The notes under the pieces were generated by a model. The model saw only the letters and a list, made by a program, of their open reading frames with translations. It was not told the origin of the DNA and made no database searches. A stretch of DNA of 64,000 nt, from the sequence record OR515477.1. One strand, 5' to 3'. Shown here piece after piece: positions 4,964 to 11,770 of this stretch. This DNA comes from Escherichia phage Es2. The position numbers were made by a program, and so were the translations under genes. Positions within the stretch are counted from its first letter, which is position 1. Each line of letters opens with the position of its first letter.

Positions 4964-5206
4964 TTACGATTCCTTGAGCAAAGAAGCAAGTTCAGCATAG
5001 ACTTTATCTAACTCAAAGCCTACGCGAAGAGACACGTTAGTTTTCCGTTGTTTAAGTAACCACTCGGATATGTTAGGGATGCCAGCTAGTCTATGCGGTA
5101 CCACCCTACATAGCTTTTCCGAAGTGTCGTAAACAGGAACTTTACGTTCTTTTACTGGAAACTTCCTTGTTTCCCATTTTTTATTCTTCACTGTCATTTC
5201 TAGCAC
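4964..5206 (-). CDS. hypothetical protein
   Basis: Six-frame ORF, 80 aa. Confidence 0.4.
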   Translation of the reverse strand: MLEMTVKNKKWETRKFPVKERKVPVYDTSEKLCRVVPHRLAGIPNISEWLLKQRKTNVSLRVGFELDKVYAELASLLKES

Positions 5207-7970
5207 CTAGCTCTGCCATTGCTTCATCATGCATATGTTTTTCCTCGTCAGTCATGAATTTATAAGGAATTGGCATACACTCGATTTTACAATAAGTTCT
5301 GTACCAGTCTACGATATTTTCAGTGTTCATATCTTTGCCAATACCCATCATACCAAGATACATTCTGGCATATTTTGGGTTAGCACTCTGACCTGTTTTA
5401 AGGAAGAAATCTTTCTTCTTACCTTTCAGAGCTTCTATGAATGGTTTGATAGTGACATTTGAACACTTCTTAATATCTTCCCAGAACATCTCATGCATCT
5501 TATGGAAGAACGCAGCTCGATCATTAGGTTTATCCTTGATATATTGTTCAACATGCTCAACTGTTACATCTTTAATAGACTCAAGATGATAATAGCGAAC
5601 AAGAAGTAGTTTAGCTTCATACGCATCTGCATGGCGTGGAGCACAATAGTCCGGAGTTGAGTGCAGAATAGCTTTGATTCGCTCTTCTGTATACTCTTTT
5701 CCTGCACCTTCGATAGTTCCCCAGCTTTCACTGAAAATATCAATAGTTGCTCCCTGATCAAGCAAGTAATAGCGTAAAGTACTAGTGTAGTTCCTAGATT
5801 CCAGCTCCCTACGACGTGCGTATAATTGCTGTGCTAACTCCAGCCAACCTTCATCAATGTTATATTGTTCAGAACCTGCTGAGAATCCACTCGTAGATTT
5901 ATCAATAAAATAATAAATGTTCTGAGCGCCACGGTCGCGCCTGATTGCTTGGAAACGCATGTTTGGCGCTTGATTACTGGTTCTAGTAATAACGAATACG
6001 TTATCAAAATAGTTAAAGTCAACGCCACTCGTTACGGATGGACTACATAATAAGCAATCAATTTGTTGATCAATTAGCTCATTAGTTGTGTAATCCAGAA
6101 TACGTCTAATATCTACATCAGACGTAGAATTTGAGTGAATTTCCTTAACTAACGCACCCGTATTACGACGCAGTGCCATACCCTTCTCATTCAGCTCATC
6201 AGGGCCACAGTCAGATACTAGAATAGACTTCTCCCCCATCTCTAGTGATGTTTGGAGTGCAACCCAAATACTAGATTCATCAGGAAACTCATAAGCATGG
6301 GCTTTTGACAGCATCTTACGGTGATGATTATAAAATGCGACCGGTTTATCAAACTCAATTAAAGAACCATATGCTTCAATTGTTTCTGCACTAATGTCCC
6401 CATCAGATAATATAATGATTTTTGCAGTTGCAAGAATATCCCGAAGAACCTGAATACATTCACGACGTTGCTTAACAACCGGGGCGAATAACAGGTCATT
6501 CATTACAGCATCACATTCATCGATAAAGATTGCATCTATTTGACCAATAAAACTCTTGAATTTATGCAAAGAGTGAATAGTTGTGGACATACGGTCAATA
6601 GCACCACGCTTAAAATTAAGCATATCTACAGACTTATCGTATTGTCCTGCACTAAATTTCTTAGCATTTGAGGATACCAGTGCTCGAGTATTGGTAATTG
6701 CTAAGAAATTACCTTTAATAACTCCCGAATCTAACCAACGCACAACCGCCGTAGTTTTACCTGTACCTAGACTTGCTTTTACAAAAGTCATATAGCCTTC
6801 TGGTGGTACAGTATTTAATTTCAAGAAGTTATCAGTCTCTAAAGAGTTAGTTTCTAGCTTTTTAAGTGGAATACCTTTTAAAACATCAGGTATATCACGT
6901 TTAGAATTATTAACAAACGCTTTCAGAGCCTGTTTTCTACCATTATTAAAGTAATCTTGAATATTACGACTATTATCTTTAGTTGCAATATATTCTGATA
7001 AGGCTGGGCGGATTTCTTTTTCTAGCCATGCAAAGTCAACACCATCCTCTAAAGCTCTGTGATAGAGTTTAGGTATGATACGTAGATACACTCCATCCTC
7101 AGCTTCTTCTAGTTCGCTGATAGTTTCCTCTACTTTATCAGAGGCAGCTTTTTTACCCTTAATTTGGTCGAGTAAAGAGTAGAACTCTTCTTTAAACTCA
7201 CCTCTAGTTGTTTCATAGTCAACCAGATTATTGGGTAAATTTACTTTAGAACCCTTAACAAATACCAGACGTGAAGCACCCTCCGCTTTAAACGGATCTA
7301 CTATACCATCAGTAAATAAAGGATCTGCAAAATAATGGAGCTGTACGGAAGAGTAATAAGCTAAGTCGGCAATATCAAAGCCATACTTTTGTCTACTACT
7401 TTCGTTGATAGATGTAAATAAGAATTTGATTTGACCCTGAGTTACTTTAACATTAGATTCTAGTATTAAGTGCATTCGGATACCTGGTTTTAGCCCAGCC
7501 GAAGACGATGCGTGAGCGATAAACCCTGCATCAAGAGGAAACATATCCTCACTAATACTATTTAACATTCTAATAATATGTCGAGCCATGCCAACAAGAT
7601 CAAACTTGTTACAACCACCTGTATCTACAATACCATCCACGTCCATTGCAATTATATGACTTGGATTAGATACATTAAAGTTGCCCTTCTTACGTCGCAC
7701 ATTATTTTTAGGTGCAAGACATCGACCTCGTACCGCAACGATATGAGGGTCAGACGTTAAACGTCTCATAAGAGGAAGCATTTCTACTAGGGTTTGAGGA
7801 TCAACTTCATCAATTACATCAAACTTGAAGGGCATTGAAGCTGGTTTACCTTCAGGATGCTTTGAGGAAAATCTTTTAGCAAAAAGATAGTCTTCTGCTT
7901 TAACTTCTCGCCAAATGCCTGTGGCTAAATCGCGATGAAATCCTGCATGACCTTGTAGGATTGAGAACAC
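5181..7970 (-). CDS. SF2-like helicase/ATPase (Walker A GTGKTT, DECD box)
   Basis: Walker A LGTGKTT and Walker B-like IFIDECDAV; track ORF begins at a TTG (8048) but a GTG about 7 nt after an AGGAG at ~7970 is the better start (position +/-1). Confidence 0.6.
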   Translation of the reverse strand: MFSILQGHAGFHRDLATGIWREVKAEDYLFAKRFSSKHPEGKPASMPFKFDVIDEVDPQTLVEMLPLMRRLTSDPHIVAVRGRCLAPKNNVRRKKGNFNVSNPSHIIAMDVDGIVDTGGCNKFDLVGMARHIIRMLNSISEDMFPLDAGFIAHASSSAGLKPGIRMHLILESNVKVTQGQIKFLFTSINESSRQKYGFDIADLAYYSSVQLHYFADPLFTDGIVDPFKAEGASRLVFVKGSKVNLPNNLVDYETTRGEFKEEFYSLLDQIKGKKAASDKVEETISELEEAEDGVYLRIIPKLYHRALEDGVDFAWLEKEIRPALSEYIATKDNSRNIQDYFNNGRKQALKAFVNNSKRDIPDVLKGIPLKKLETNSLETDNFLKLNTVPPEGYMTFVKASLGTGKTTAVVRWLDSGVIKGNFLAITNTRALVSSNAKKFSAGQYDKSVDMLNFKRGAIDRMSTTIHSLHKFKSFIGQIDAIFIDECDAVMNDLLFAPVVKQRRECIQVLRDILATAKIIILSDGDISAETIEAYGSLIEFDKPVAFYNHHRKMLSKAHAYEFPDESSIWVALQTSLEMGEKSILVSDCGPDELNEKGMALRRNTGALVKEIHSNSTSDVDIRRILDYTTNELIDQQIDCLLCSPSVTSGVDFNYFDNVFVITRTSNQAPNMRFQAIRRDRGAQNIYYFIDKSTSGFSAGSEQYNIDEGWLELAQQLYARRRELESRNYTSTLRYYLLDQGATIDIFSESWGTIEGAGKEYTEERIKAILHSTPDYCAPRHADAYEAKLLLVRYYHLESIKDVTVEHVEQYIKDKPNDRAAFFHKMHEMFWEDIKKCSNVTIKPFIEALKGKKKDFFLKTGQSANPKYARMYLGMMGIGKDMNTENIVDWYRTYCKIECMPIPYKFMTDEEKHMHDEAMAELGARNDSEE

Positions 7971-8469
7971 AACAATACTCCTGTGTTGGAAATAAAATAA
8001 GTTTTCTTTAGGACTATTCAGAAAGAATAGAACAACTGTTACTGTCAATTTCTCAACAAATTAATCGCAAATACTGAAGGGGGGTGGCAACTTCCCCTTT
8101 CACGCTACACTGCCGCTTCACTATACCGCACAAATCCTTGAGGATGGCCGCTAAGCCAGATTTGCTCACCTAATGCTTCATGTACTAGCTCATACTAGGT
8201 GCAGTATACCTTACGTCATCACTTCTCAGAGTTTTTCACTCTTCCCGTCTCACTTCACAACCACCTCACACTAGGTTGCTTCGAGGCCTTACCAGGGTTC
8301 CTACGGGATGTAGATCGCTAAGTATTCTATTAACTATTTGTTTAAAAACTAACACGTAACAGTTAAAACAACCCTTAATGGGGCAGCCTAACTGTTCCGT
8401 ATCGCGGATTGTAAACAAGAAAAATTAGTAAAATCAATTTTTACTAATGTCTCTCAATTCAATATAAAT

Positions 8470-8498
8470 ATTATATCAAGATTTTGGGCATCCTGCAA
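8470..8498 (-). promoter_or_regulatory. early-type sigma70 promoter (minus strand) upstream of helicase leader
   Basis: Reverse complement TTGCAG, 17 bp, TATAAT, then TTTATATTGAATTGAGAG. Confidence 0.55.
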
Positions 8499-8589
8499 GT
8501 AAAATTTTCCAGATGGTGCTATCATTGGTCTTGGGTACGGATAAAACCGAGCCAAAATGACTCGGTAATCGGGGTTCAGCTAATAAAAA

Positions 8590-8982
8590 TCATTCATCAT
8601 TTAATCCCGGAACATAGATCCCAACACGGCTTAATTGTTCTTTAGCTTCTGCGAGAATATCTGGAGTGTACTCCCAAATATCATCTTCCACCCGTAAAAG
8701 ATGGGGTGAACAACCATCATCCGGCACACGACATATGGCCAGACCACGTGGATGGAACAAAGAGAAATTTAGGGCAACAATCAAGCCCATAGCAGACAAT
8801 TCATTCCAATCCAATTCCCGTTCCCCGGCATATCCAGACAGGAAAACACCAATGCAGGGGTCATCTATTTGCTGCTCCGGAAAAGTGAAGGAGGCTTGTC
8901 TTACCCCCAACCAACGTTGTAGTAGCTTCTCCGCACGTCTCACCAAACTAGGGTCAATCTGACGCCAATATACTTGTTCCAT
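8590..8982 (-). CDS. hypothetical protein, paralog of 8992-9420
   Basis: Shares PCIG, W.EL..MGL..ALN..LF.P and G..VPGL blocks with the adjacent ORF. Confidence 0.55.
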   Translation of the reverse strand: MEQVYWRQIDPSLVRRAEKLLQRWLGVRQASFTFPEQQIDDPCIGVFLSGYAGERELDWNELSAMGLIVALNFSLFHPRGLAICRVPDDGCSPHLLRVEDDIWEYTPDILAEAKEQLSRVGIYVPGLNDE

Positions 8983-8991
8983 TCTGCCTCC

Positions 8992-9420
8992 TTAAGCAGT
9001 TAAACCTGGGATCATATACCCGAAACGTCGAAGTTTCTGAATCCCCTCATTTACTTCTTCCGGTGAGTAAGACCAACCATAACGTTCATTAACCTGAAAA
9101 CCAGGAGATTCACTAGTCTTATAGTTAACAACGAGGCGATGCTTAGCAGGCATAAACAGCTTATAGTTTAACGCAAAAACTAAGCCCATTTCATCTAGCT
9201 CTTTCCAGCCCACAATCTCTTCAAGACCATCCTCTACCTGCACAATTAAACCAATACATGGGGCCTCATCAATATCATCTTTAAAAGCAAAGGAGATTTC
9301 GTTATTCTCACACCATATTTTCAAAAAGTTAATAGCCTCATTATACAGGCTAGCCGGGAGAGTACGCCAAAAGTTAACCAAAATTGGGTTAGCTTCTTTA
9401 GAGAATACATTATTGAACAT
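8992..9420 (-). CDS. hypothetical protein, paralog of 8590-8982
   Basis: Tandem paralog; same conserved blocks. Confidence 0.55.
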   Translation of the reverse strand: MFNNVFSKEANPILVNFWRTLPASLYNEAINFLKIWCENNEISFAFKDDIDEAPCIGLIVQVEDGLEEIVGWKELDEMGLVFALNYKLFMPAKHRLVVNYKTSESPGFQVNERYGWSYSPEEVNEGIQKLRRFGYMIPGLTA

Positions 9421-9422
9421 AC

Positions 9423-9929
9423 TTACACCTTAAATTGTTGTAAGGATTTACACATTTCAAGATCTGGGCTAAATTCTAGCATATAGCTAACAGCTTTTAA
9501 ATCTTGAAGATTTACCCCAGTCCTACCATTGACTATAACCGTTGGATACTGGTACATCATAGCACCAGCATCATCCAGCACACACCAATGTTTGAGCTTA
9601 TGCTTTTCAACGAAGCGAAGAACAGAATTACCCCTAGATAATCCACCCCCGGTAAAATCCGTTGTACCAAGAAAACGATCGATAAGACCTAATCCGGTCA
9701 TAATCTGAACGTTCTCCATCTCATTTCTGACAGAGAACCAAGATGATACCCCAACAATCATTATTGAAGAGGGACGAATAAAATCCTGAAAAGCCTTGAG
9801 AAGTGGCTTAAAAACCCAATCACTTCCGAAGAAGATCTTTTCATCATCCGGCGCATGGTGGTGCGAGATGCTCGAATTGAGCACCCCATCAATATCTAGA
9901 AAAATAACTGGAGTATTACTTATTTCCAT
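9423..9929 (-). CDS. HAD-superfamily phosphatase-like protein
   Basis: N-terminal FLDIDGVLN (DxDG[TV] HAD motif I). Confidence 0.55.
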   Translation of the reverse strand: MEISNTPVIFLDIDGVLNSSISHHHAPDDEKIFFGSDWVFKPLLKAFQDFIRPSSIMIVGVSSWFSVRNEMENVQIMTGLGLIDRFLGTTDFTGGGLSRGNSVLRFVEKHKLKHWCVLDDAGAMMYQYPTVIVNGRTGVNLQDLKAVSYMLEFSPDLEMCKSLQQFKV

Positions 9930-10098
9930 TTTTGTTCCTTTCTAAGAACGTATCATACTCAACCGTATCAACATATATGACACCATAGTCATCGGATTTA
10001 TAGTCCATTTCCCACAGCTCACAGCGATAACACCAACTACCATCCGCCCATACAAATATATCATCGGGATGTGTATATACAGATTTAACTATAGACAT
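9916..10098 (-). CDS. hypothetical protein
   Basis: 60 aa ORF overlapping neighbours by a few nt (coupled). Confidence 0.4.
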   Translation of the reverse strand: MSIVKSVYTHPDDIFVWADGSWCYRCELWEMDYKSDDYGVIYVDTVEYDTFLERNKNGNK

Positions 10099-10913
10099 AT
10101 TTGTTTCCCTGGCATATAAGGTCTACCCTCTAAATGAGCTTCCACACGAGCAATAAAATCAGGATCACTGAAAGCATCTACCGCACCTTTACTCCAGTAA
10201 GGGATACCACGTTCTTCCAACTGGTACATCTCACTACGAGTCATACCTTGATAGCCGGGCTCCGCTGCTAGAGCACTATCATAGTAGTTAACAACCATAA
10301 GTTTCGCAGCAGTCAAATTAAGAACAGGAAATAATTCCCAGTAGAAGTTAATTACTTGGTTAGAACAACCAACTACAATAATCATATCTTGACTGGTAAT
10401 ACTGTCAAAAACATTATACATTTCTGTGTATGCAGGAGCATGCTCTCCAAAGAAGATTACATTAGGTTTAACCCATTTATAATCATCTGGATCAATAGAA
10501 TTGTATCCTACGTCAATAATCCGTTTATTGCTACTATTATAGCTATCAGCTACAATAATCTCTTTTAAATATCCGTGAATGTGCAGAATGTCACTATGTG
10601 GAACGCCAGCACGTTCAATAAGGTCATCAACGTTAGTAGTCAAGTTTACTACTTGACCTGGATATTGTTTATACCATTCACCAATACGCAAATGCGCAAG
10701 ATTGGGTTCAACAGTTTTTAGCTCTTCACGACGTTTATTGTAAAATGCGTGAGTTTTATGATAAAAGTTACCACGAAAGGCATGAATATTACATACCTCT
10801 TCTAGATCATAATCATCCCACAATGCCTTACCGCTAGCAGTATCCGTACGGAAGGCTCGTACACCACTTTCAACGCTCAAACCTGCACCACTAATAATAA
10901 TTAATCTACGCAT
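10089..10913 (-). CDS. Sir2-family (sirtuin-like) NAD-dependent protein
   Basis: ISGAGLSVESGVRAFR (GAGIS..SGIP.FR-like), TNVDDLIERAG (TQNID.LH..AG-like) and HIHG motifs. Confidence 0.7.
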   Translation of the reverse strand: MRRLIIISGAGLSVESGVRAFRTDTASGKALWDDYDLEEVCNIHAFRGNFYHKTHAFYNKRREELKTVEPNLAHLRIGEWYKQYPGQVVNLTTNVDDLIERAGVPHSDILHIHGYLKEIIVADSYNSSNKRIIDVGYNSIDPDDYKWVKPNVIFFGEHAPAYTEMYNVFDSITSQDMIIVVGCSNQVINFYWELFPVLNLTAAKLMVVNYYDSALAAEPGYQGMTRSEMYQLEERGIPYWSKGAVDAFSDPDFIARVEAHLEGRPYMPGKQICL

Positions 10914-11127
10914 TTTTCACCTGTTCTCTGAAGTTTTGCCCAATACTGTCTAACAGCTCAGCTAACTCTTTATTGCCTTTCTCCATTAAGGTATTAGCAA
11001 TAACTTCTAGCATAGTAGCGCAGGATTCAACACCATCCTTATAGCCAGTTTCCCAGTGCTGCATTAATGCGTTTTCCAAAGCGGTGTTTAAATCATTATC
11101 GGGTAGCATCGGCTTCGAGAATGCCAT
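10906..11127 (-). CDS. hypothetical protein
   Basis: Six-frame ORF, 73 aa. Confidence 0.4.
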   Translation of the reverse strand: MAFSKPMLPDNDLNTALENALMQHWETGYKDGVESCATMLEVIANTLMEKGNKELAELLDSIGQNFREQVKNA

Positions 11128-11320
11128 AAAGTTTCTCCTCTAGTTCCATGATACGATTTTCATAAGAGGCACGCAACTTTTCAATTGCCAGCGCACGCAC
11201 TGTAACTTCATTAGAATTAATAGCTAATTGGGCCAGGTCTTCTGTTTCCATACGTCCGTTGTAAATTAAGCGATATTTAAGATGTTTCACATTCTTAGTC
11301 ATTATTAAACTCCACTGCAA
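11096..11320 (-). CDS. hypothetical protein
   Basis: Six-frame ORF, 74 aa. Confidence 0.4.
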   Translation of the reverse strand: MQWSLIMTKNVKHLKYRLIYNGRMETEDLAQLAINSNEVTVRALAIEKLRASYENRIMELEEKLYGILEADATR

Positions 11321-11675
11321 CTGTTTCTAGGTCTTCATCAGAAAAATTAGAGTATACATCTTTAAGGTATTGTTTAATGTCTTCAGTAATATCTTCGTAT
11401 CCCTCAGGACTACGTTGGTATACTTTTAGTACTCTATTATAAACAAATTCAATATCATACTTTATTTCACCCTCATCCTCGTCAAACAAGCAATCTGAGT
11501 TATACGGTGATACATCTAGATTTGTTTCTACCCAATCACCAATAATTGATGAATATCCAATACCCTCTAGATGGGAGTAATCTCCAGTAGATGCAAAAAT
11601 AGCTTCTCTAAGATCGTCTACGCCAAGATGGAAACCACCACATGTAGACTCAACTATATATGGTTTTAGATTCAT
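11295..11675 (-). CDS. hypothetical acidic protein
   Basis: 126 aa ORF downstream of promoter 11706-11734. Confidence 0.5.
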   Translation of the reverse strand: MNLKPYIVESTCGGFHLGVDDLREAIFASTGDYSHLEGIGYSSIIGDWVETNLDVSPYNSDCLFDEDEGEIKYDIEFVYNRVLKVYQRSPEGYEDITEDIKQYLKDVYSNFSDEDLETVAVEFNND

Positions 11676-11705: not shown

Positions 11706-11734
11706 ATTATATATAAATTTTTGGCTGAAAGCAA
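11706..11734 (-). promoter_or_regulatory. early-type sigma70 promoter (minus strand)
   Basis: Reverse complement TTGCTT, 17 bp, TATAAT, then ATTTATAAATTTGAGAGAGG. Confidence 0.6.
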
Positions 11735-11770
11735 ATAAAATAAAAGCCAGGTCGACTAGCAACCCGGCTG
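11733..11770 (-). terminator. rho-independent terminator after nrdD (minus strand)
   Basis: Reverse complement AGCCGGGTTGCTAGTCGACCTGGCT followed by TTTATTTTATTT. Confidence 0.6.

What the first reader, a model, noticed from the sequence alone, without database searches (positions are those of the whole stretch)
8590..10913. Phage-borne Sir2-like gene in a coupled operon with a HAD-type phosphatase and two tandem paralogs
A five-gene minus-strand operon (10913 down to 8590) encodes a protein with clear sirtuin motifs (GAGLSVESGVRAFR, TNVDDLIERAG, HIHG), a 60-aa ORF, a HAD-motif protein (FLDIDGVLN) and two adjacent ~135-aa paralogs of unknown function. Sir2 domains are NAD-consuming effectors in several bacterial defence systems (Thoeris ThsA, DSR, SIR2-HerA); a phage-encoded Sir2 with a phosphatase partner could act in NAD/ADP-ribose metabolism, counter-defence or host takeover. 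The cluster sits between nrdD and a helicase gene, so it is embedded in the replication/nucleotide module rather than in an obvious accessory island.
Basis: partly seen in the sequence, partly recalled or inferred. Interest (0 to 1): 0.75.

Follow-up and report, generated by a model that had tools for sequence, protein, structure and literature searches.

The report
Known T5 phage sirtuin–phosphatase module
This is the long-annotated sirtuin-plus-phosphatase gene cluster shared by T5-like phages; the genes look enzymatically active and the pairing is already published, but nobody has yet tested what it does.

Summary
Five tightly packed minus-strand ORFs lie at 10913-8590: a Sir2 protein (274 aa), a 60-aa ORF, a HAD phosphatase (168 aa) and two DUF7415 paralogs (142 and 130 aa, 33% identical). 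They are the last five genes of an eight-ORF early transcription unit (promoter about 11734, terminator about 8566-8541).

The window is a T5-like phage. The block corresponds to T5.102-T5.107, occurs in over 500 phage records, and has carried a Sir2 annotation since 2005. Iyer et al. 2022 already described the sirtuin/"Swiss-army-knife" HAD neighbourhood in T5-like phage SP15 and proposed a KptA/Tpt1-like RNA-repair role.

The Sir2 is of the CobB/SIRT5 type, not a defence-type SIR2. Its catalytic residues, including the YxxR anion pocket, are invariant across the clade, and the zinc cysteines are absent. All four HAD motifs are intact.

- The same HAD clade is operon-coupled to the NARP1 NAD+-rebuilding genes in another phage lineage.
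- Two independent natural deletions (DT57C, SHSML-45) remove Sir2 and HAD together, so the pair is accessory.
- DUF7415 is a phage-only fold with no known relative.
- HAD is widely mislabelled "Sir2".

Function remains untested. Verdict: real, already known, moderate interest.

The parts
11745..11769 (-). Rho-independent terminator just after the nrdD stop codon; marks the upstream boundary of the unit
   Evidence: 10-bp stem with 6 GC pairs followed by a T-run. The sequence was read. T5 annotates a terminator at the equivalent place.
11706..11734 (-). T5 early-type promoter: -35 TTGCTT (11734-11729), 17-nt spacer, -10 TATAAT (11711-11706), then ...ATTTGAGAGAGG and the ATG at 11675
   Evidence: Read directly from the sequence. 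T5 annotates a promoter at the equivalent position. The resemblance to P_N25 is from memory. The consensus scan missed it because the -35 hexamer matches only 3 of 6.
11295..11675 (-). ORF of 126 aa, first gene of the unit (T5.100 family), function unknown
   Evidence: phrog_11748 E=4.5e-70; no Pfam family.
11096..11320 (-). ORF of 74 aa (T5.101 family), function unknown
   Evidence: phrog_5236 E=8e-46.
10906..11127 (-). ORF of 73 aa, function unknown; its end overlaps the Sir2 start by 8 nt
   Evidence: phrog_5827 E=7e-31. Its N-terminus is fused to the HAD C-terminus in the SHSML-45 deletion.
10089..10913 (-). Sirtuin (T5.102 orthologue): zinc-less, CobB/SIRT5-like, member of a phage-specific clade
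   Evidence: Pfam SIR2 E=9e-25; phrog_2162 E=2e-121; best solved relative is E. coli CobB 1s5p, E=3e-18. Invariant Y58/R61, N94/D96, H113-G114, F155/E157 and G182-x-S184, with no zinc cysteines in 8 divergent phage sequences. No PADLOC hit.
9916..10098 (-). 60-aa ORF (T5.104 family, phrog_5116); belongs to a variable tandem array of small paralogous ORFs
   Evidence: phrog_5116 E=6e-30. Copy number between Sir2 and HAD is 0-3 in T5-like loci. A homologue follows Sir2 in L006, where HAD has moved upstream.
9423..9929 (-). Capless HAD-superfamily phosphatase (T5.105 orthologue; HAD_SAK_2)
   Evidence: PF18143 E=4e-20. Invariant D12/D14, S62/S63, R99 and D119/D120. AF2 pLDDT 94.5. Nearest solved fold is MDP-1, TM 0.56.
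8992..9420 (-). DUF7415 paralog a (142 aa, T5.106 orthologue), made of two internal DUF7415 repeats
8590..8982 (-). DUF7415 paralog b (130 aa, T5.107 orthologue)
   Evidence: PF24187 E=3e-31 with 2 stretches; 33% identical to paralog a, E=9e-22.
8541..8566 (-). Rho-independent terminator ending the unit (stem ACCGAGUC/GGCUCGGU, loop AUUUU, then a U-run)
   Evidence: Sequence read. It is helix 1 of the consensus fold, with compensatory changes in Kpn9-P3, L008 and L012. T5 annotates a terminator here.

Best explanation
Shown: this is the T5.100-T5.107 early transcription unit of a T5-like phage. Its conserved core is a catalytically intact, zinc-less sirtuin of a phage-only clade, related to CobB/SIRT5, together with a capless, catalytically intact HAD phosphomonoesterase. 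The 60-aa ORF and the two DUF7415 paralogs are lineage-variable add-ons. The Sir2+HAD pair is accessory, not essential.

Inferred (most likely mechanism): the pair carries out NAD+-dependent chemistry on phosphorylated nucleic-acid or ADP-ribose substrates, not protein deacetylation and not NAD+ depletion. Following Iyer et al. 2022, the sirtuin would bind an anionic acceptor in its invariant YxxR pocket, such as the 2'-phosphate left on nuclease-cut tRNA or RNA. It would transfer ADP-ribose from NAD+ onto that acceptor, and its catalytic His would activate the ribose 2''-OH to expel the phosphate as ADP-ribose cyclic phosphate or ADPR-phosphate, as Tpt1/KptA does. The HAD would then remove a terminal phosphate. 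The HAD clade's operon coupling to NARP1 in another phage lineage makes an ADPR-phosphate (for example ADPR-1''-P to ADPR) the more likely HAD substrate than an RNA end. That step would recycle the by-product into the NAD+ economy, which T5 depends on for its own NAD+-dependent DNA ligase.
For: Identity and conservation. Active enzymes: the Sir2 catalytic set and YxxR are invariant across 8 sequences down to 57% identity, and HAD motifs I-IV are invariant across 13 sequences down to 37% identity. Linkage of Sir2 and HAD: they are adjacent in Markadamsvirinae, in three divergent Demerecviridae-like contigs where the gene order is inverted (HAD, an unknown ORF, then SIR2), and in L034. Two independent deletions remove both together. 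Nucleic-acid/NAD context of the sirtuin clade: the KpS8 orthologue (59% identical) sits among phosphoesterase, RNA ligase, ATPase, DNA ligase and MazG genes, with NARP1 divergently transcribed about 5 kb away. This matches type 2 of Iyer et al., and their type 3 is this very T5-like neighbourhood. HAD linked to NAD: HAD homologues of 37-43% identity are the first, overlapping gene of HAD-(small ORF)-Adps-like-Namat-like operons in ChuuTotoro-like phages. The Adps-like gene belongs to the NARP1 Adps family of Felixounaviruses and DyoEdafos gp77. A macro-domain ADPR-1''P phosphatase is an experimentally proven NARP1 accessory (preprint 10.64898/2026.01.28.702374). The phage has its own NAD+ demand through T5 ligA/ligB. 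It is not defence-like: there is no PADLOC hit.
Against: No sirtuin has ever been shown to perform Tpt1-type 2'-phosphate removal, and no experimental paper was found. T5-like phages lack a homologue of the KpS8 RNA ligase in the roughly 3-80 kb region examined, so the repair pathway would be incomplete without host enzymes. By sequence the protein looks like a class III protein deacylase: YxxR, FGE and the catalytic His are exactly what a desuccinylase needs. The HAD-NARP1 coupling was seen in essentially one phage lineage (L004, L005, L007), and that lineage also has an RNA ligase and a Metallophos gene a few kb away, so it does not cleanly separate the ADPR-phosphate model from the RNA-end model. 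Klebsiella Sugarland-like phages keep Sir2 without HAD. The capless HAD fold (closest to MDP-1, with PNKP and Scp1 more distant) is typical of enzymes acting on macromolecular substrates. The roles of DUF7415 and the small ORFs are unexplained.
Confidence: 0.4

Rival explanations
1. The sirtuin is a CobB-like protein lysine deacylase (desuccinylase, deacetylase or lipoamidase). It would remodel host or phage proteins early in infection, for example by activating acetyl-CoA synthetase or altering the transcription or replication machinery. HAD would be an unrelated neighbour.
For: The best sequence matches are CobB and SIRT5 and NCBIfam deacylase models. The YxxR acidic-acyl pocket, the FGE loop and the catalytic His are invariant. 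This is the annotation in most records and the model proposed for zinc-less Vibrio phage sirtuins (PMC5107563).
Against: Scores are far below the CobB equivalog cut-offs (90 vs 320 bits). The zinc module that shapes the peptide-binding cleft has lost all its cysteines. The clade's conserved neighbours are nucleic-acid and nucleotide enzymes, not protein-modification genes. Sir2 and HAD stay together through gene-order inversion and are co-deleted.
Confidence: 0.3
2. The module is a counter-defence device acting on small NAD-derived molecules. HAD dephosphorylates ADPR-1''-P made by RES-type NAD+ phosphorylases, or 2'-phospho-ADPR from NADP+ cleavage. The sirtuin binds or converts ADPR-based signals or NAD+ breakdown products. 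RNA would play no part.
For: HAD is coupled to NARP1, and the NARP1-AP macro-domain phosphatase is a precedent. A NAMPT/Namat-like gene lies 1.8 kb upstream of tandem HAD_SAK_2 genes in L047. T5-like phages are known to carry enzymatic anti-defence genes, such as Dmp against Kongming.
Against: The window has no Adps or Namat to use the ADPR. No known sirtuin reaction rebuilds NAD+ or degrades cADPR signals. Among 44 distant HAD loci, the neighbours are heterogeneous. The sirtuin's own contexts point to RNA-end enzymes.
Confidence: 0.15
3. The Sir2 is an NADase or toxin used for host takeover or superinfection exclusion, analogous to defence Sir2 effectors.
For: Sirtuin folds can hydrolyse NAD+, and the gene is expressed from a strong early promoter.
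Against: It matches PF02146, not the defence SIR2_2 type, and has no PADLOC hit. It has no sensor or partner domain and no fusions in 120 relatives. T5 replication uses an NAD+-dependent ligase, so depleting NAD+ would harm the phage itself.
Confidence: 0.05

Closest known systems
Phage T5 genes T5.102-T5.107 (NC_005859; early region between nrdD and T5.108)
   Same: Same genes in the same order on the same strand relative to nrdD and the origin-binding helicase. Sir2 is 93% identical at the protein level and HAD 97% (L018). The same promoter and terminator frame the unit.
   Different: T5 has two small ORFs (T5.103, T5.104) between Sir2 and HAD, whereas the window has one. The closest DNA match is Salmonella phage Kenya-K20 at 97%.
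Iyer et al. 2022 'type 3' phage sirtuin neighbourhood (Escherichia phage SP15): sirtuin plus Swiss-army-knife-like HAD, predicted KptA-like RNA repair (PMC9503650)
   Same: It is the same neighbourhood. SP15 is a T5-like phage and appears among the close hits. The sirtuin clade and the HAD family (PF18143) are the same.
   Different: That paper does not discuss the DUF7415 paralogs, the variable small ORFs, the natural deletions or the HAD-NARP1 coupling. Its mechanism is a computational prediction only.
E. coli CobB / human SIRT5 (class III sirtuin deacylases)
   Same: GAGxS, FR, YxxR, N..D, the catalytic HG and FGE motifs all align.
   Different: The zinc-binding cysteines are absent. TQNID is TTNVD. 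Scores are far below the CobB equivalog cut-off. The clade is found only on phage-sized contigs.
Tpt1/KptA RNA 2'-phosphotransferase
   Same: The proposed chemistry is parallel: an oxyanion attacks NAD+ C1'', then the ribose 2''-OH attacks to release the group, consuming NAD+ and giving nicotinamide plus an ADPR derivative. This is an inference, together with Iyer et al.
   Different: The fold is unrelated (ART versus Rossmann sirtuin). No homology and no activity has been demonstrated.
NARP1-AP phosphatase Adpp (Macro domain, Vibrio phage Gary; preprint 10.64898/2026.01.28.702374)
   Same: It is a phosphatase gene embedded in a NARP1 operon, as the HAD homologue is in ChuuTotoro-like phages. 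Its role is converting ADPR-1''-P to ADPR.
   Different: Adpp has a Macro fold, not a HAD fold. The T5 window has no NARP1 genes. The HAD's substrate is untested.
Defence SIR2 effectors (ThsA, DSR1/2, SIR2-HerA)
   Same: They share the sirtuin-like Rossmann fold and use NAD+.
   Different: They belong to a different Pfam family and clade. The window protein has no PADLOC match, no sensor or partner domains, and is encoded by a phage.

Membership tests
Sirtuin superfamily (Pfam PF02146 SIR2) | Profile match above the curated cut-off | tested here: met
   88 bits against a cut-off of 24, E=9.4e-25, covering profile positions 1-178 of 180.
Sirtuin superfamily (Pfam PF02146 SIR2) | NAD-binding GAGxS and FR motifs, N/D of the TQNxD motif, catalytic His of HG | tested here: met
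   G9-A-G-L-S13, F21-R22, N94/D96 (with Q replaced by T) and H113-G114 all align to CobB. Those scoreable over all nine rows (N94, D96, H113-G114) are invariant, and GAGxS is kept in every full-length sequence.
Sirtuin superfamily (Pfam PF02146 SIR2) | Cys4 zinc-binding module | tested here: not met
   No Cys between H113 and the FGE loop in any of the 8 phage sequences, whereas CobB has its cysteines there.
Class III sirtuins (CobB/SIRT5 deacylases) | YxxR pocket for acidic acyl groups | tested here: met
   Y58-N-K-R61 aligns with CobB FYNARR and is invariant. The role of this motif is taken from established SIRT5/CobB knowledge.
Class III sirtuins (CobB/SIRT5 deacylases) | Orthology to CobB (NCBIfam equivalog cut-off) | tested here: not met
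   NF040867 scores 90.3 bits against a cut-off of 320; NF001753 scores 101 against 243.
Class III sirtuins (CobB/SIRT5 deacylases) | NAD-dependent lysine deacylase activity | not testable with these tools
   Needs an enzyme assay. No experimental paper was found.
Defence-type SIR2 NADases (ThsA, DSR, SIR2-HerA) | Match to defence SIR2 models, or presence of a sensor or partner domain | tested here: not met
   No PADLOC family. The protein is single-domain, as are 120 relatives.
HAD superfamily phosphatase (PF18143 HAD_SAK_2) | Profile match above the cut-off and the four HAD motifs (DxD; S/T; K/R; DD) | tested here: met
   73 bits against a cut-off of 27.5. D12/D14, S62/S63, R99 and D119/D120 are invariant in 13 sequences.
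HAD superfamily phosphatase (PF18143 HAD_SAK_2) | Rossmannoid HAD fold; cap type | tested here: met
   AF2 pLDDT 94.5. The best solved match is the capless MDP-1 (E=2e-3, TM 0.56), with T4 PNKP and Scp1 at TM 0.40.
Iyer et al. sirtuin-centred RNA-repair system (type 3) | Phage-clade sirtuin adjacent to a SAK-like HAD | tested here: met
   The sirtuin is 59% identical to the type 2 sirtuin of KpS8.
Iyer et al. sirtuin-centred RNA-repair system (type 3) | An RNA ligase or 2H end-healing partner encoded by the phage | tested here: inconclusive
   No homologue of the KpS8 RNA ligase in the window or in T5 52-80 kb. Other ligase families (Rnl2, RtcB) and 2H enzymes were not searched for, and host enzymes could substitute.
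Iyer et al. sirtuin-centred RNA-repair system (type 3) | 2'-phosphotransferase (KptA-like) activity of the sirtuin | not testable with these tools
   This is a prediction only. No experimental test was found.
NARP1 / NARP1-AP NAD+ reconstitution pathway | Adps (Prs-like) and Namat (NAMPT-like) genes | tested here: not met
   No tblastn hit to KpS8 or ChuuTotoro Adps or Namat in the window. Only the HAD's homologues are NARP1-coupled, and that is in other phages.
DUF7415 (PF24187) | Profile match; repeat architecture | tested here: met
   121.7 and 107.9 bits against a cut-off of 27, with two stretches each. Single-repeat proteins superpose on half of the model.

The most novel reading that the evidence does not exclude
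The phage HAD_SAK_2 clade (T5.105 family) may be an ADP-ribose-phosphate phosphatase that serves the phage's NAD+ economy in two settings. In ChuuTotoro-like phages it would be a previously unrecognised HAD-type accessory of NARP1, non-homologous to the macro-domain Adpp, possibly countering RES-type NAD+ phosphorolysis. In T5-like phages it would be the partner of a zinc-less sirtuin that uses its succinyl-type YxxR anion pocket to ADP-ribosylate a phosphate group (an RNA 2'-phosphate or a nucleic-acid end). That would be the first sirtuin with Tpt1-like chemistry. DT57C and SHSML-45 would be ready-made natural knockouts for testing this.
Probability: 0.2. Interest if true: 0.65.

Novelty: already known. 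Interest (0 to 1): 0.3.

Why it matters
Sirtuins of this phage-only clade occur in about a thousand sequenced phages, including T5-like, rV5-like and jumbo phages, and many of these are used in phage therapy and biocontrol. Their function has never been tested. NAD+ is now recognised as a central battleground between bacteria and phages. If the sirtuin-HAD pair repairs nuclease-cut RNA, or recycles ADP-ribose phosphates, it would add a new enzymatic branch to that conflict and a new reaction type for sirtuins. For this window in particular, the value lies in sharpening a published prediction, not in discovering something new. The leads are the HAD-NARP1 link, the natural Sir2+HAD deletions, the accessory status of the small ORFs and DUF7415, and the correction of a widespread mis-annotation.

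Tried and rejected
- I tested whether the 140-aa ORF overlapping the HAD start in ChuuTotoro-like phages is a DUF7415 relative. It is not: hhalign probability 0.1, and it belongs to phrog_8453.
- I considered whether the 60-aa ORF replaces the lost zinc module of Sir2 or is an obligate partner. I rejected this because only two Cys are present and they are not conserved in L006, and because the copy number varies from 0 to 3.
- A census of genes flanking 44 distant HAD_SAK_2 loci from IMG/VR showed no dominant partner family, so it gives no general rule.
- I looked for domain fusions of the sirtuin clade that might reveal its function. There were none among 120 relatives.
- The supplements of the aRES/NARP1-AP preprint do not mention HAD or ChuuTotoro.
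- Rfam has no family for the downstream leader.
- The word-indexed homologue search for DUF7415 reached only close T5-like relatives. The exhaustive profile search found just 53 clusters.
- Literature searches for T5 locus tags and for DUF7415 returned nothing.
Full report
WHAT IS THERE. Profile searches leave no doubt about what they are:

| Window ORF (minus strand) | Size | Best family matches |
|---|---|---|
| 10913-10089 | 274 aa | Pfam SIR2, E=9e-25; PHROG 2162, E=2e-121 |
| 10098-9916 | 60 aa | PHROG 5116, E=6e-30 |
| 9929-9423 | 168 aa | PF18143 HAD_SAK_2, E=4e-20 |
| 9420-8992 | 142 aa | PF24187 DUF7415, E=1e-35, two repeats |
| 8982-8590 | 130 aa | PF24187 DUF7415, E=3e-31, two repeats |

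(All.) The last two proteins are true paralogs, 33% identical with E=9e-22. Gene junctions overlap by 10 and 14 nt or leave gaps of only 2 and 9 nt, which fits translational coupling.

The unit is larger than stated. Directly after the nrdD stop codon there is a terminator hairpin (11769-11745). It is followed by a T5 early-type promoter (TTGCTT, 17 nt, TATAAT, then ...ATTTGAGAGAGG). Three further small ORFs come next (126, 74 and 73 aa; all with strong PHROG hits), and the last of them overlaps the Sir2 start by 8 nt. A terminator (8566-8541) follows the second paralog. The T5 reference annotation draws the same promoter-to-terminator unit, T5.100-T5.107.

WHERE IT COMES FROM. The window is a T5-like phage (Demerecviridae, Tequintavirus). 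The 2.8-kb block matches 528 phage records, 220 of them over at least 80% of its length. The best match is Salmonella phage Kenya-K20 at 97%. In phage T5 itself the genes are:
- T5.102: Sir2;
- T5.103 and T5.104: small ORFs;
- T5.105: the HAD, mislabelled 'Sir2';
- T5.106 and T5.107: the DUF7415 pair.

The Sir2 annotation dates back to the 2005 T5 genome paper, as cited in PMC5107563.

PRIOR ART. Iyer, Burroughs, Anantharaman and Aravind (Viruses 2022, PMC9503650, section 3.7.3) already describe this neighbourhood. [quoted passage not shown] They group it with two other contexts of the same phage sirtuin clade:
- jumbo phages, with 2H, Nudix, cREC and PIN genes;
- rV5/Mydo-like phages, with a T4-like RNA ligase, cREC, a kinase, MazG and a calcineurin-like phosphoesterase.

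They propose that these sirtuins act like KptA/Tpt1, removing RNA 2'-phosphates with NAD+. The associated phosphoesterases would either heal the RNA ends or process the ADPr>P by-product. I found no experimental test of this idea and none of any T5 sirtuin function. The finding is therefore real but already known as an annotated and computationally analysed module.

THE SIRTUIN. Its closest solved relatives are E. coli CobB (1s5p, E=3e-18), the archaeal Sir2Af proteins and human SIRT5. NCBIfam deacylase models match it, but far below their equivalog cut-offs (90 vs 320 bits). No PADLOC defence model matches. I aligned it with seven other Demerecviridae-type sirtuins, down to 57% identity, plus CobB. 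In that alignment:
- the Y58-x-x-R61 pocket that in CobB/SIRT5 binds acidic acyl groups, N94/D96 (TTNVD in place of TQNID), the catalytic H113-G114, F155-x-E157 and G182-x-S184 are invariant across all rows;
- GAGxS and the F-R pair are kept in every sequence that covers them (the phiR2-01 row was supplied N-terminally truncated);
- no phage sequence has any of the zinc-binding cysteines.

The enzyme is thus under purifying selection as an active, zinc-less, class-III-like sirtuin. The clade is large: 1,000 phage records by tblastn, with 52-62% identity to the sirtuins of rV5-like and Mydovirus myophages. Its 120 nearest database relatives are all stand-alone ~250-300-aa proteins, and the long contigs among them are phage-sized. 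None has a domain fusion. In Klebsiella phage KpS8 the orthologue (59% identical) sits in the order phosphoesterase, RNA ligase, ATPase, Sir2, DNA ligase, MazG. NARP1 (Prs-like plus NamPT-like genes) is transcribed divergently about 5 kb away. I therefore confirmed the 'type 2' context of Iyer et al. independently.

THE HAD PHOSPHATASE. All four HAD motifs are invariant in 13 sequences down to 37% identity: D12-x-D14, S62/S63, R99 and D119-D120. The AlphaFold model is very confident (pLDDT 94.5). Its nearest solved fold is the capless phosphatase MDP-1 (TM 0.56), with T4 PNKP and Scp1 more distant. It has no sequence-level relative in the PDB.

Gene context is the informative part:

| Setting | Gene order |
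|---|---|
| Three divergent Demerecviridae-like contigs (L006, L008/L009, L012) | HAD, unknown ORF, SIR2, small ORF; order inverted relative to T5, no DUF7415 |
| L034 | Sir2, HAD, one DUF7415 |
| Unrelated ~150-kb lineage: Serratia phage ChuuTotoro and contigs L005, L007 | HAD homologue (37-43% identical) is the first, overlapping gene of an operon with a Prs-like and a NAPRTase-family gene |

The Prs-like gene in that last operon belongs to the same phage family as the NARP1 Adps of Felixounaviruses and of DyoEdafos gp77 (NARP1 is defined in 10.1101/2024.02.11.579819).

A 2026 preprint shows that some NARP1 operons carry a macro-domain phosphatase, Adpp. It converts ADPR-1''-phosphate, made by RES-type defence proteins, into ADPR. 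Neither its text nor its supplements mention a HAD-type gene. The HAD-NARP1 coupling therefore appears to be unreported. It suggests that this HAD clade acts on an ADP-ribose phosphate rather than on RNA ends, which is the second of the two options Iyer et al. left open.

There are caveats. The coupling was seen in essentially one lineage, and that lineage has an RNA ligase and a Metallophos gene a few kb away. Neighbours of 44 more distant HAD_SAK_2 genes are heterogeneous. The one exception is L047, where a NAMPT/Namat-like gene lies 1.8 kb upstream of two tandem HADs.

THE VARIABLE PARTS.
- The 60-aa ORF belongs to a small family whose copy number between Sir2 and HAD ranges from 0 to 3 among T5-like phages. 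A homologue still follows Sir2 in L006. It is not a zinc-module substitute, because its cysteines are not conserved.
- DUF7415 is a small phage family: 53 clusters among 1.84 billion representatives.
- Klebsiella Sugarland-like phages have Sir2 plus two DUF7415 genes and no HAD.
- T4-like Jiaodaviruses carry a single-repeat DUF7415 between nrdD and nrdG.
- Rare fusions join DUF7415 to thymidylate kinase and to an ASCH-like domain.

DUF7415 therefore associates with nucleotide-metabolism genes in general and not specifically with Sir2. Its function remains open.

THE PAIR IS ACCESSORY. Two viable, independently isolated T5-like phages carry different in-frame deletions:
- In DT57C a 90-aa remnant fuses Sir2 residues ~173-222 to HAD residues 128-168.
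- In Shigella phage SHSML-45 the upstream 73-aa ORF is fused to HAD residues 64-168.

Both deletions destroy Sir2 and the HAD catalytic motif together, and both leave the DUF7415 pair intact. This shows that the pair is dispensable for growth on laboratory hosts. Their loss together fits a shared function, although simple adjacency could also explain it. Such chimeras also explain why PHROG 18062, labelled 'Sir2', matches the HAD C-terminus (E=2e-57) far better than it matches Sir2. They also explain why many records, including RefSeq T5.105, call the HAD 'Sir2'.

HOW IT MOST LIKELY WORKS.
- Shown: two catalytically intact enzymes, an NAD+-using sirtuin and a phosphomonoesterase, are expressed together from a strong early promoter and are linked across lineages.
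- Inferred: the sirtuin acts on an anionic, probably phosphorylated, acceptor. Sirtuin chemistry (a nucleophilic oxygen attacks NAD+ C1'', then the His-activated ribose 2'-OH attacks the bound group) parallels the two steps of Tpt1/KptA. The invariant YxxR pocket, which binds a carboxylate in SIRT5/CobB, could equally hold a phosphate.
- Inferred: the HAD then removes a terminal phosphate, most plausibly from the ADPR-phosphate by-product, given its NARP1 coupling. That would return ADPR to the NAD+ economy. T5 depends on NAD+ for its split NAD+-dependent DNA ligase, ligA/ligB.

I give this RNA/ADPR-phosphate model about 0.4. Three points count against it. No sirtuin is known to perform this reaction. 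T5-likes lack a homologue of the KpS8 RNA ligase in the regions examined. By sequence the protein looks like a deacylase.

The rivals are a CobB-like protein deacylase (0.3), a purely small-molecule counter-defence role (0.15), and an NAD-depleting takeover enzyme (0.05). The last is disfavoured by the family type, the lack of PADLOC hits and the phage's own need for NAD+.

NOVELTY AND VERDICT. The module is already known. It is conserved in hundreds of T5-like genomes, has been annotated since 2005, and its sirtuin-HAD linkage was published with a mechanistic prediction in 2022.
- the HAD-NARP1 operon coupling;
- natural Sir2+HAD knockouts;
- the eight-gene unit boundaries;
- the variable status of the small ORFs and DUF7415;
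- the class-III YxxR signature of a zinc-less clade;
- the origin of a widespread mis-annotation.

Interest is 0.3.

SIDE OBSERVATION. The ~600-nt non-coding stretch between the unit's terminator and the T5.108-type helicase gene (GTG start at 7970) contains a strong T5-type promoter (8498-8470) and then a leader of about 450 nt. This leader has sequence islands conserved across very divergent Demerecviridae, for example an invariant GCUUAGCGGC. A consensus fold has 68 pairs in 11 helices, and 34 of those pairs show compensatory changes.

| Measure | Predicted structure | Controls |
|---|---|---|
| Cells forming a standard pair | 88% | 38-47% when partners are slid |
| Covariation score | 0.43 | 0.09-0.15 when slid |
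| Shuffles reaching the observed values | - | 0 of 500 |

 The outermost helix pairs 8421-8415 with 7984-7978, which is the Shine-Dalgarno sequence of the helicase gene. No Rfam family matches. The caveats are that only seven sequences were used and that the structure was derived from the same alignment it was then tested on.

Noticed in passing
window 7971-8498 (minus strand): A conserved structured 5' leader of about 450 nt lies downstream of a T5-type promoter (-35 at 8498-8493, -10 at 8475-8470) and upstream of the T5.108-type origin-binding helicase gene (GTG start at 7970). It forms 11 helices; 34 of 68 pairs show compensatory changes across 7 divergent Demerecviridae; 88% of cells are paired against 38-47% in slid controls. 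The outer helix (8421-8415 with 7984-7978) sequesters the Shine-Dalgarno sequence. There is no Rfam family. It could be an undescribed cis-regulatory RNA.
   Followed up: partly
L004 5001-8217; L005 5001-8569; L007 5001-8519: In ChuuTotoro-like ~150-kb phages, a homologue of the window's HAD (37-43% identical) is the first, overlapping gene of an operon with Adps-like and Namat-like (NARP1) genes. The NARP1 papers I read describe a macro-domain phosphatase accessory but no HAD-type one.
   Followed up: partly
L096 3468-3740 (phage DT57C); L033 3929-4318 (Shigella phage SHSML-45): Two independent in-frame deletion chimeras (Sir2::HAD, and 73-aa ORF::HAD) remove Sir2 and the HAD catalytic motif while keeping both DUF7415 genes. 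They are natural knockouts of the pair in viable phages.
   Followed up: yes
window 9423-9929; T5.105 in NC_005859: The HAD phosphatase is widely annotated as 'Sir2 (NAD-dependent deacetylase)'. PHROG 18062, which carries that label, matches HAD residues 77-168 (E=2e-57), probably because it was built from deletion chimeras such as the DT57C remnant. Other records label the DUF7415 genes 'tail tube protein' or 'exonuclease'.
   Followed up: yes
L015 2983-3216 (Klebsiella Jiaodavirus vB_Kpn_AM_K3): A 77-aa single-repeat DUF7415 protein lies between nrdD and nrdG in T4-like Klebsiella phages. In T5-likes the DUF7415 pair also lies downstream of nrdD. This is a recurrent but unexplained link to the anaerobic ribonucleotide reductase.
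   Followed up: partly
proteins P0096 and P0081: Rare fusions of a DUF7415 repeat occur with a thymidylate kinase domain (515 aa) and with a DUF3850/ASCH-like domain (154 aa). They hint at a nucleotide-related role.
   Followed up: no
window 11706-11734 and 8470-8498 (minus strand): Two strong T5 early-type promoters have conserved downstream 'ATTTGAGAGA(GG)' / 'ATTGAGAGA' boxes. The second one is the short element (window ~8448-8508) that matches distant Klebsiella and Providencia phages at 87-97% identity. The consensus scan missed the first; the second fell below its matching threshold.
   Followed up: partly
window 5181-8048 (minus strand): The 955-aa ORF listed from a TTG start over-extends into the structured leader. 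Homology to T5.108 and K20_097 and the conserved SD place the real start at GTG 7970, giving 929 aa.
   Followed up: yes
L095 3307-3501 (phage PSa2): A 64-aa ORF upstream of Sir2 is annotated 'nicotinamide mononucleotide transporter', and the Sir2 gene is split into SIRT5_1 and SIRT5_2. The first is probably an annotation artefact and the second a frameshift or sequencing error.
   Followed up: no
L094 2933-11118 (Klebsiella phage KpS8): In this Mydovirus, the orthologous sirtuin with its RNA ligase, phosphoesterase and MazG cluster lies back-to-back with a NARP1 operon. RNA-repair-type and NAD+-reconstitution genes thus form a single island.
   Followed up: partly
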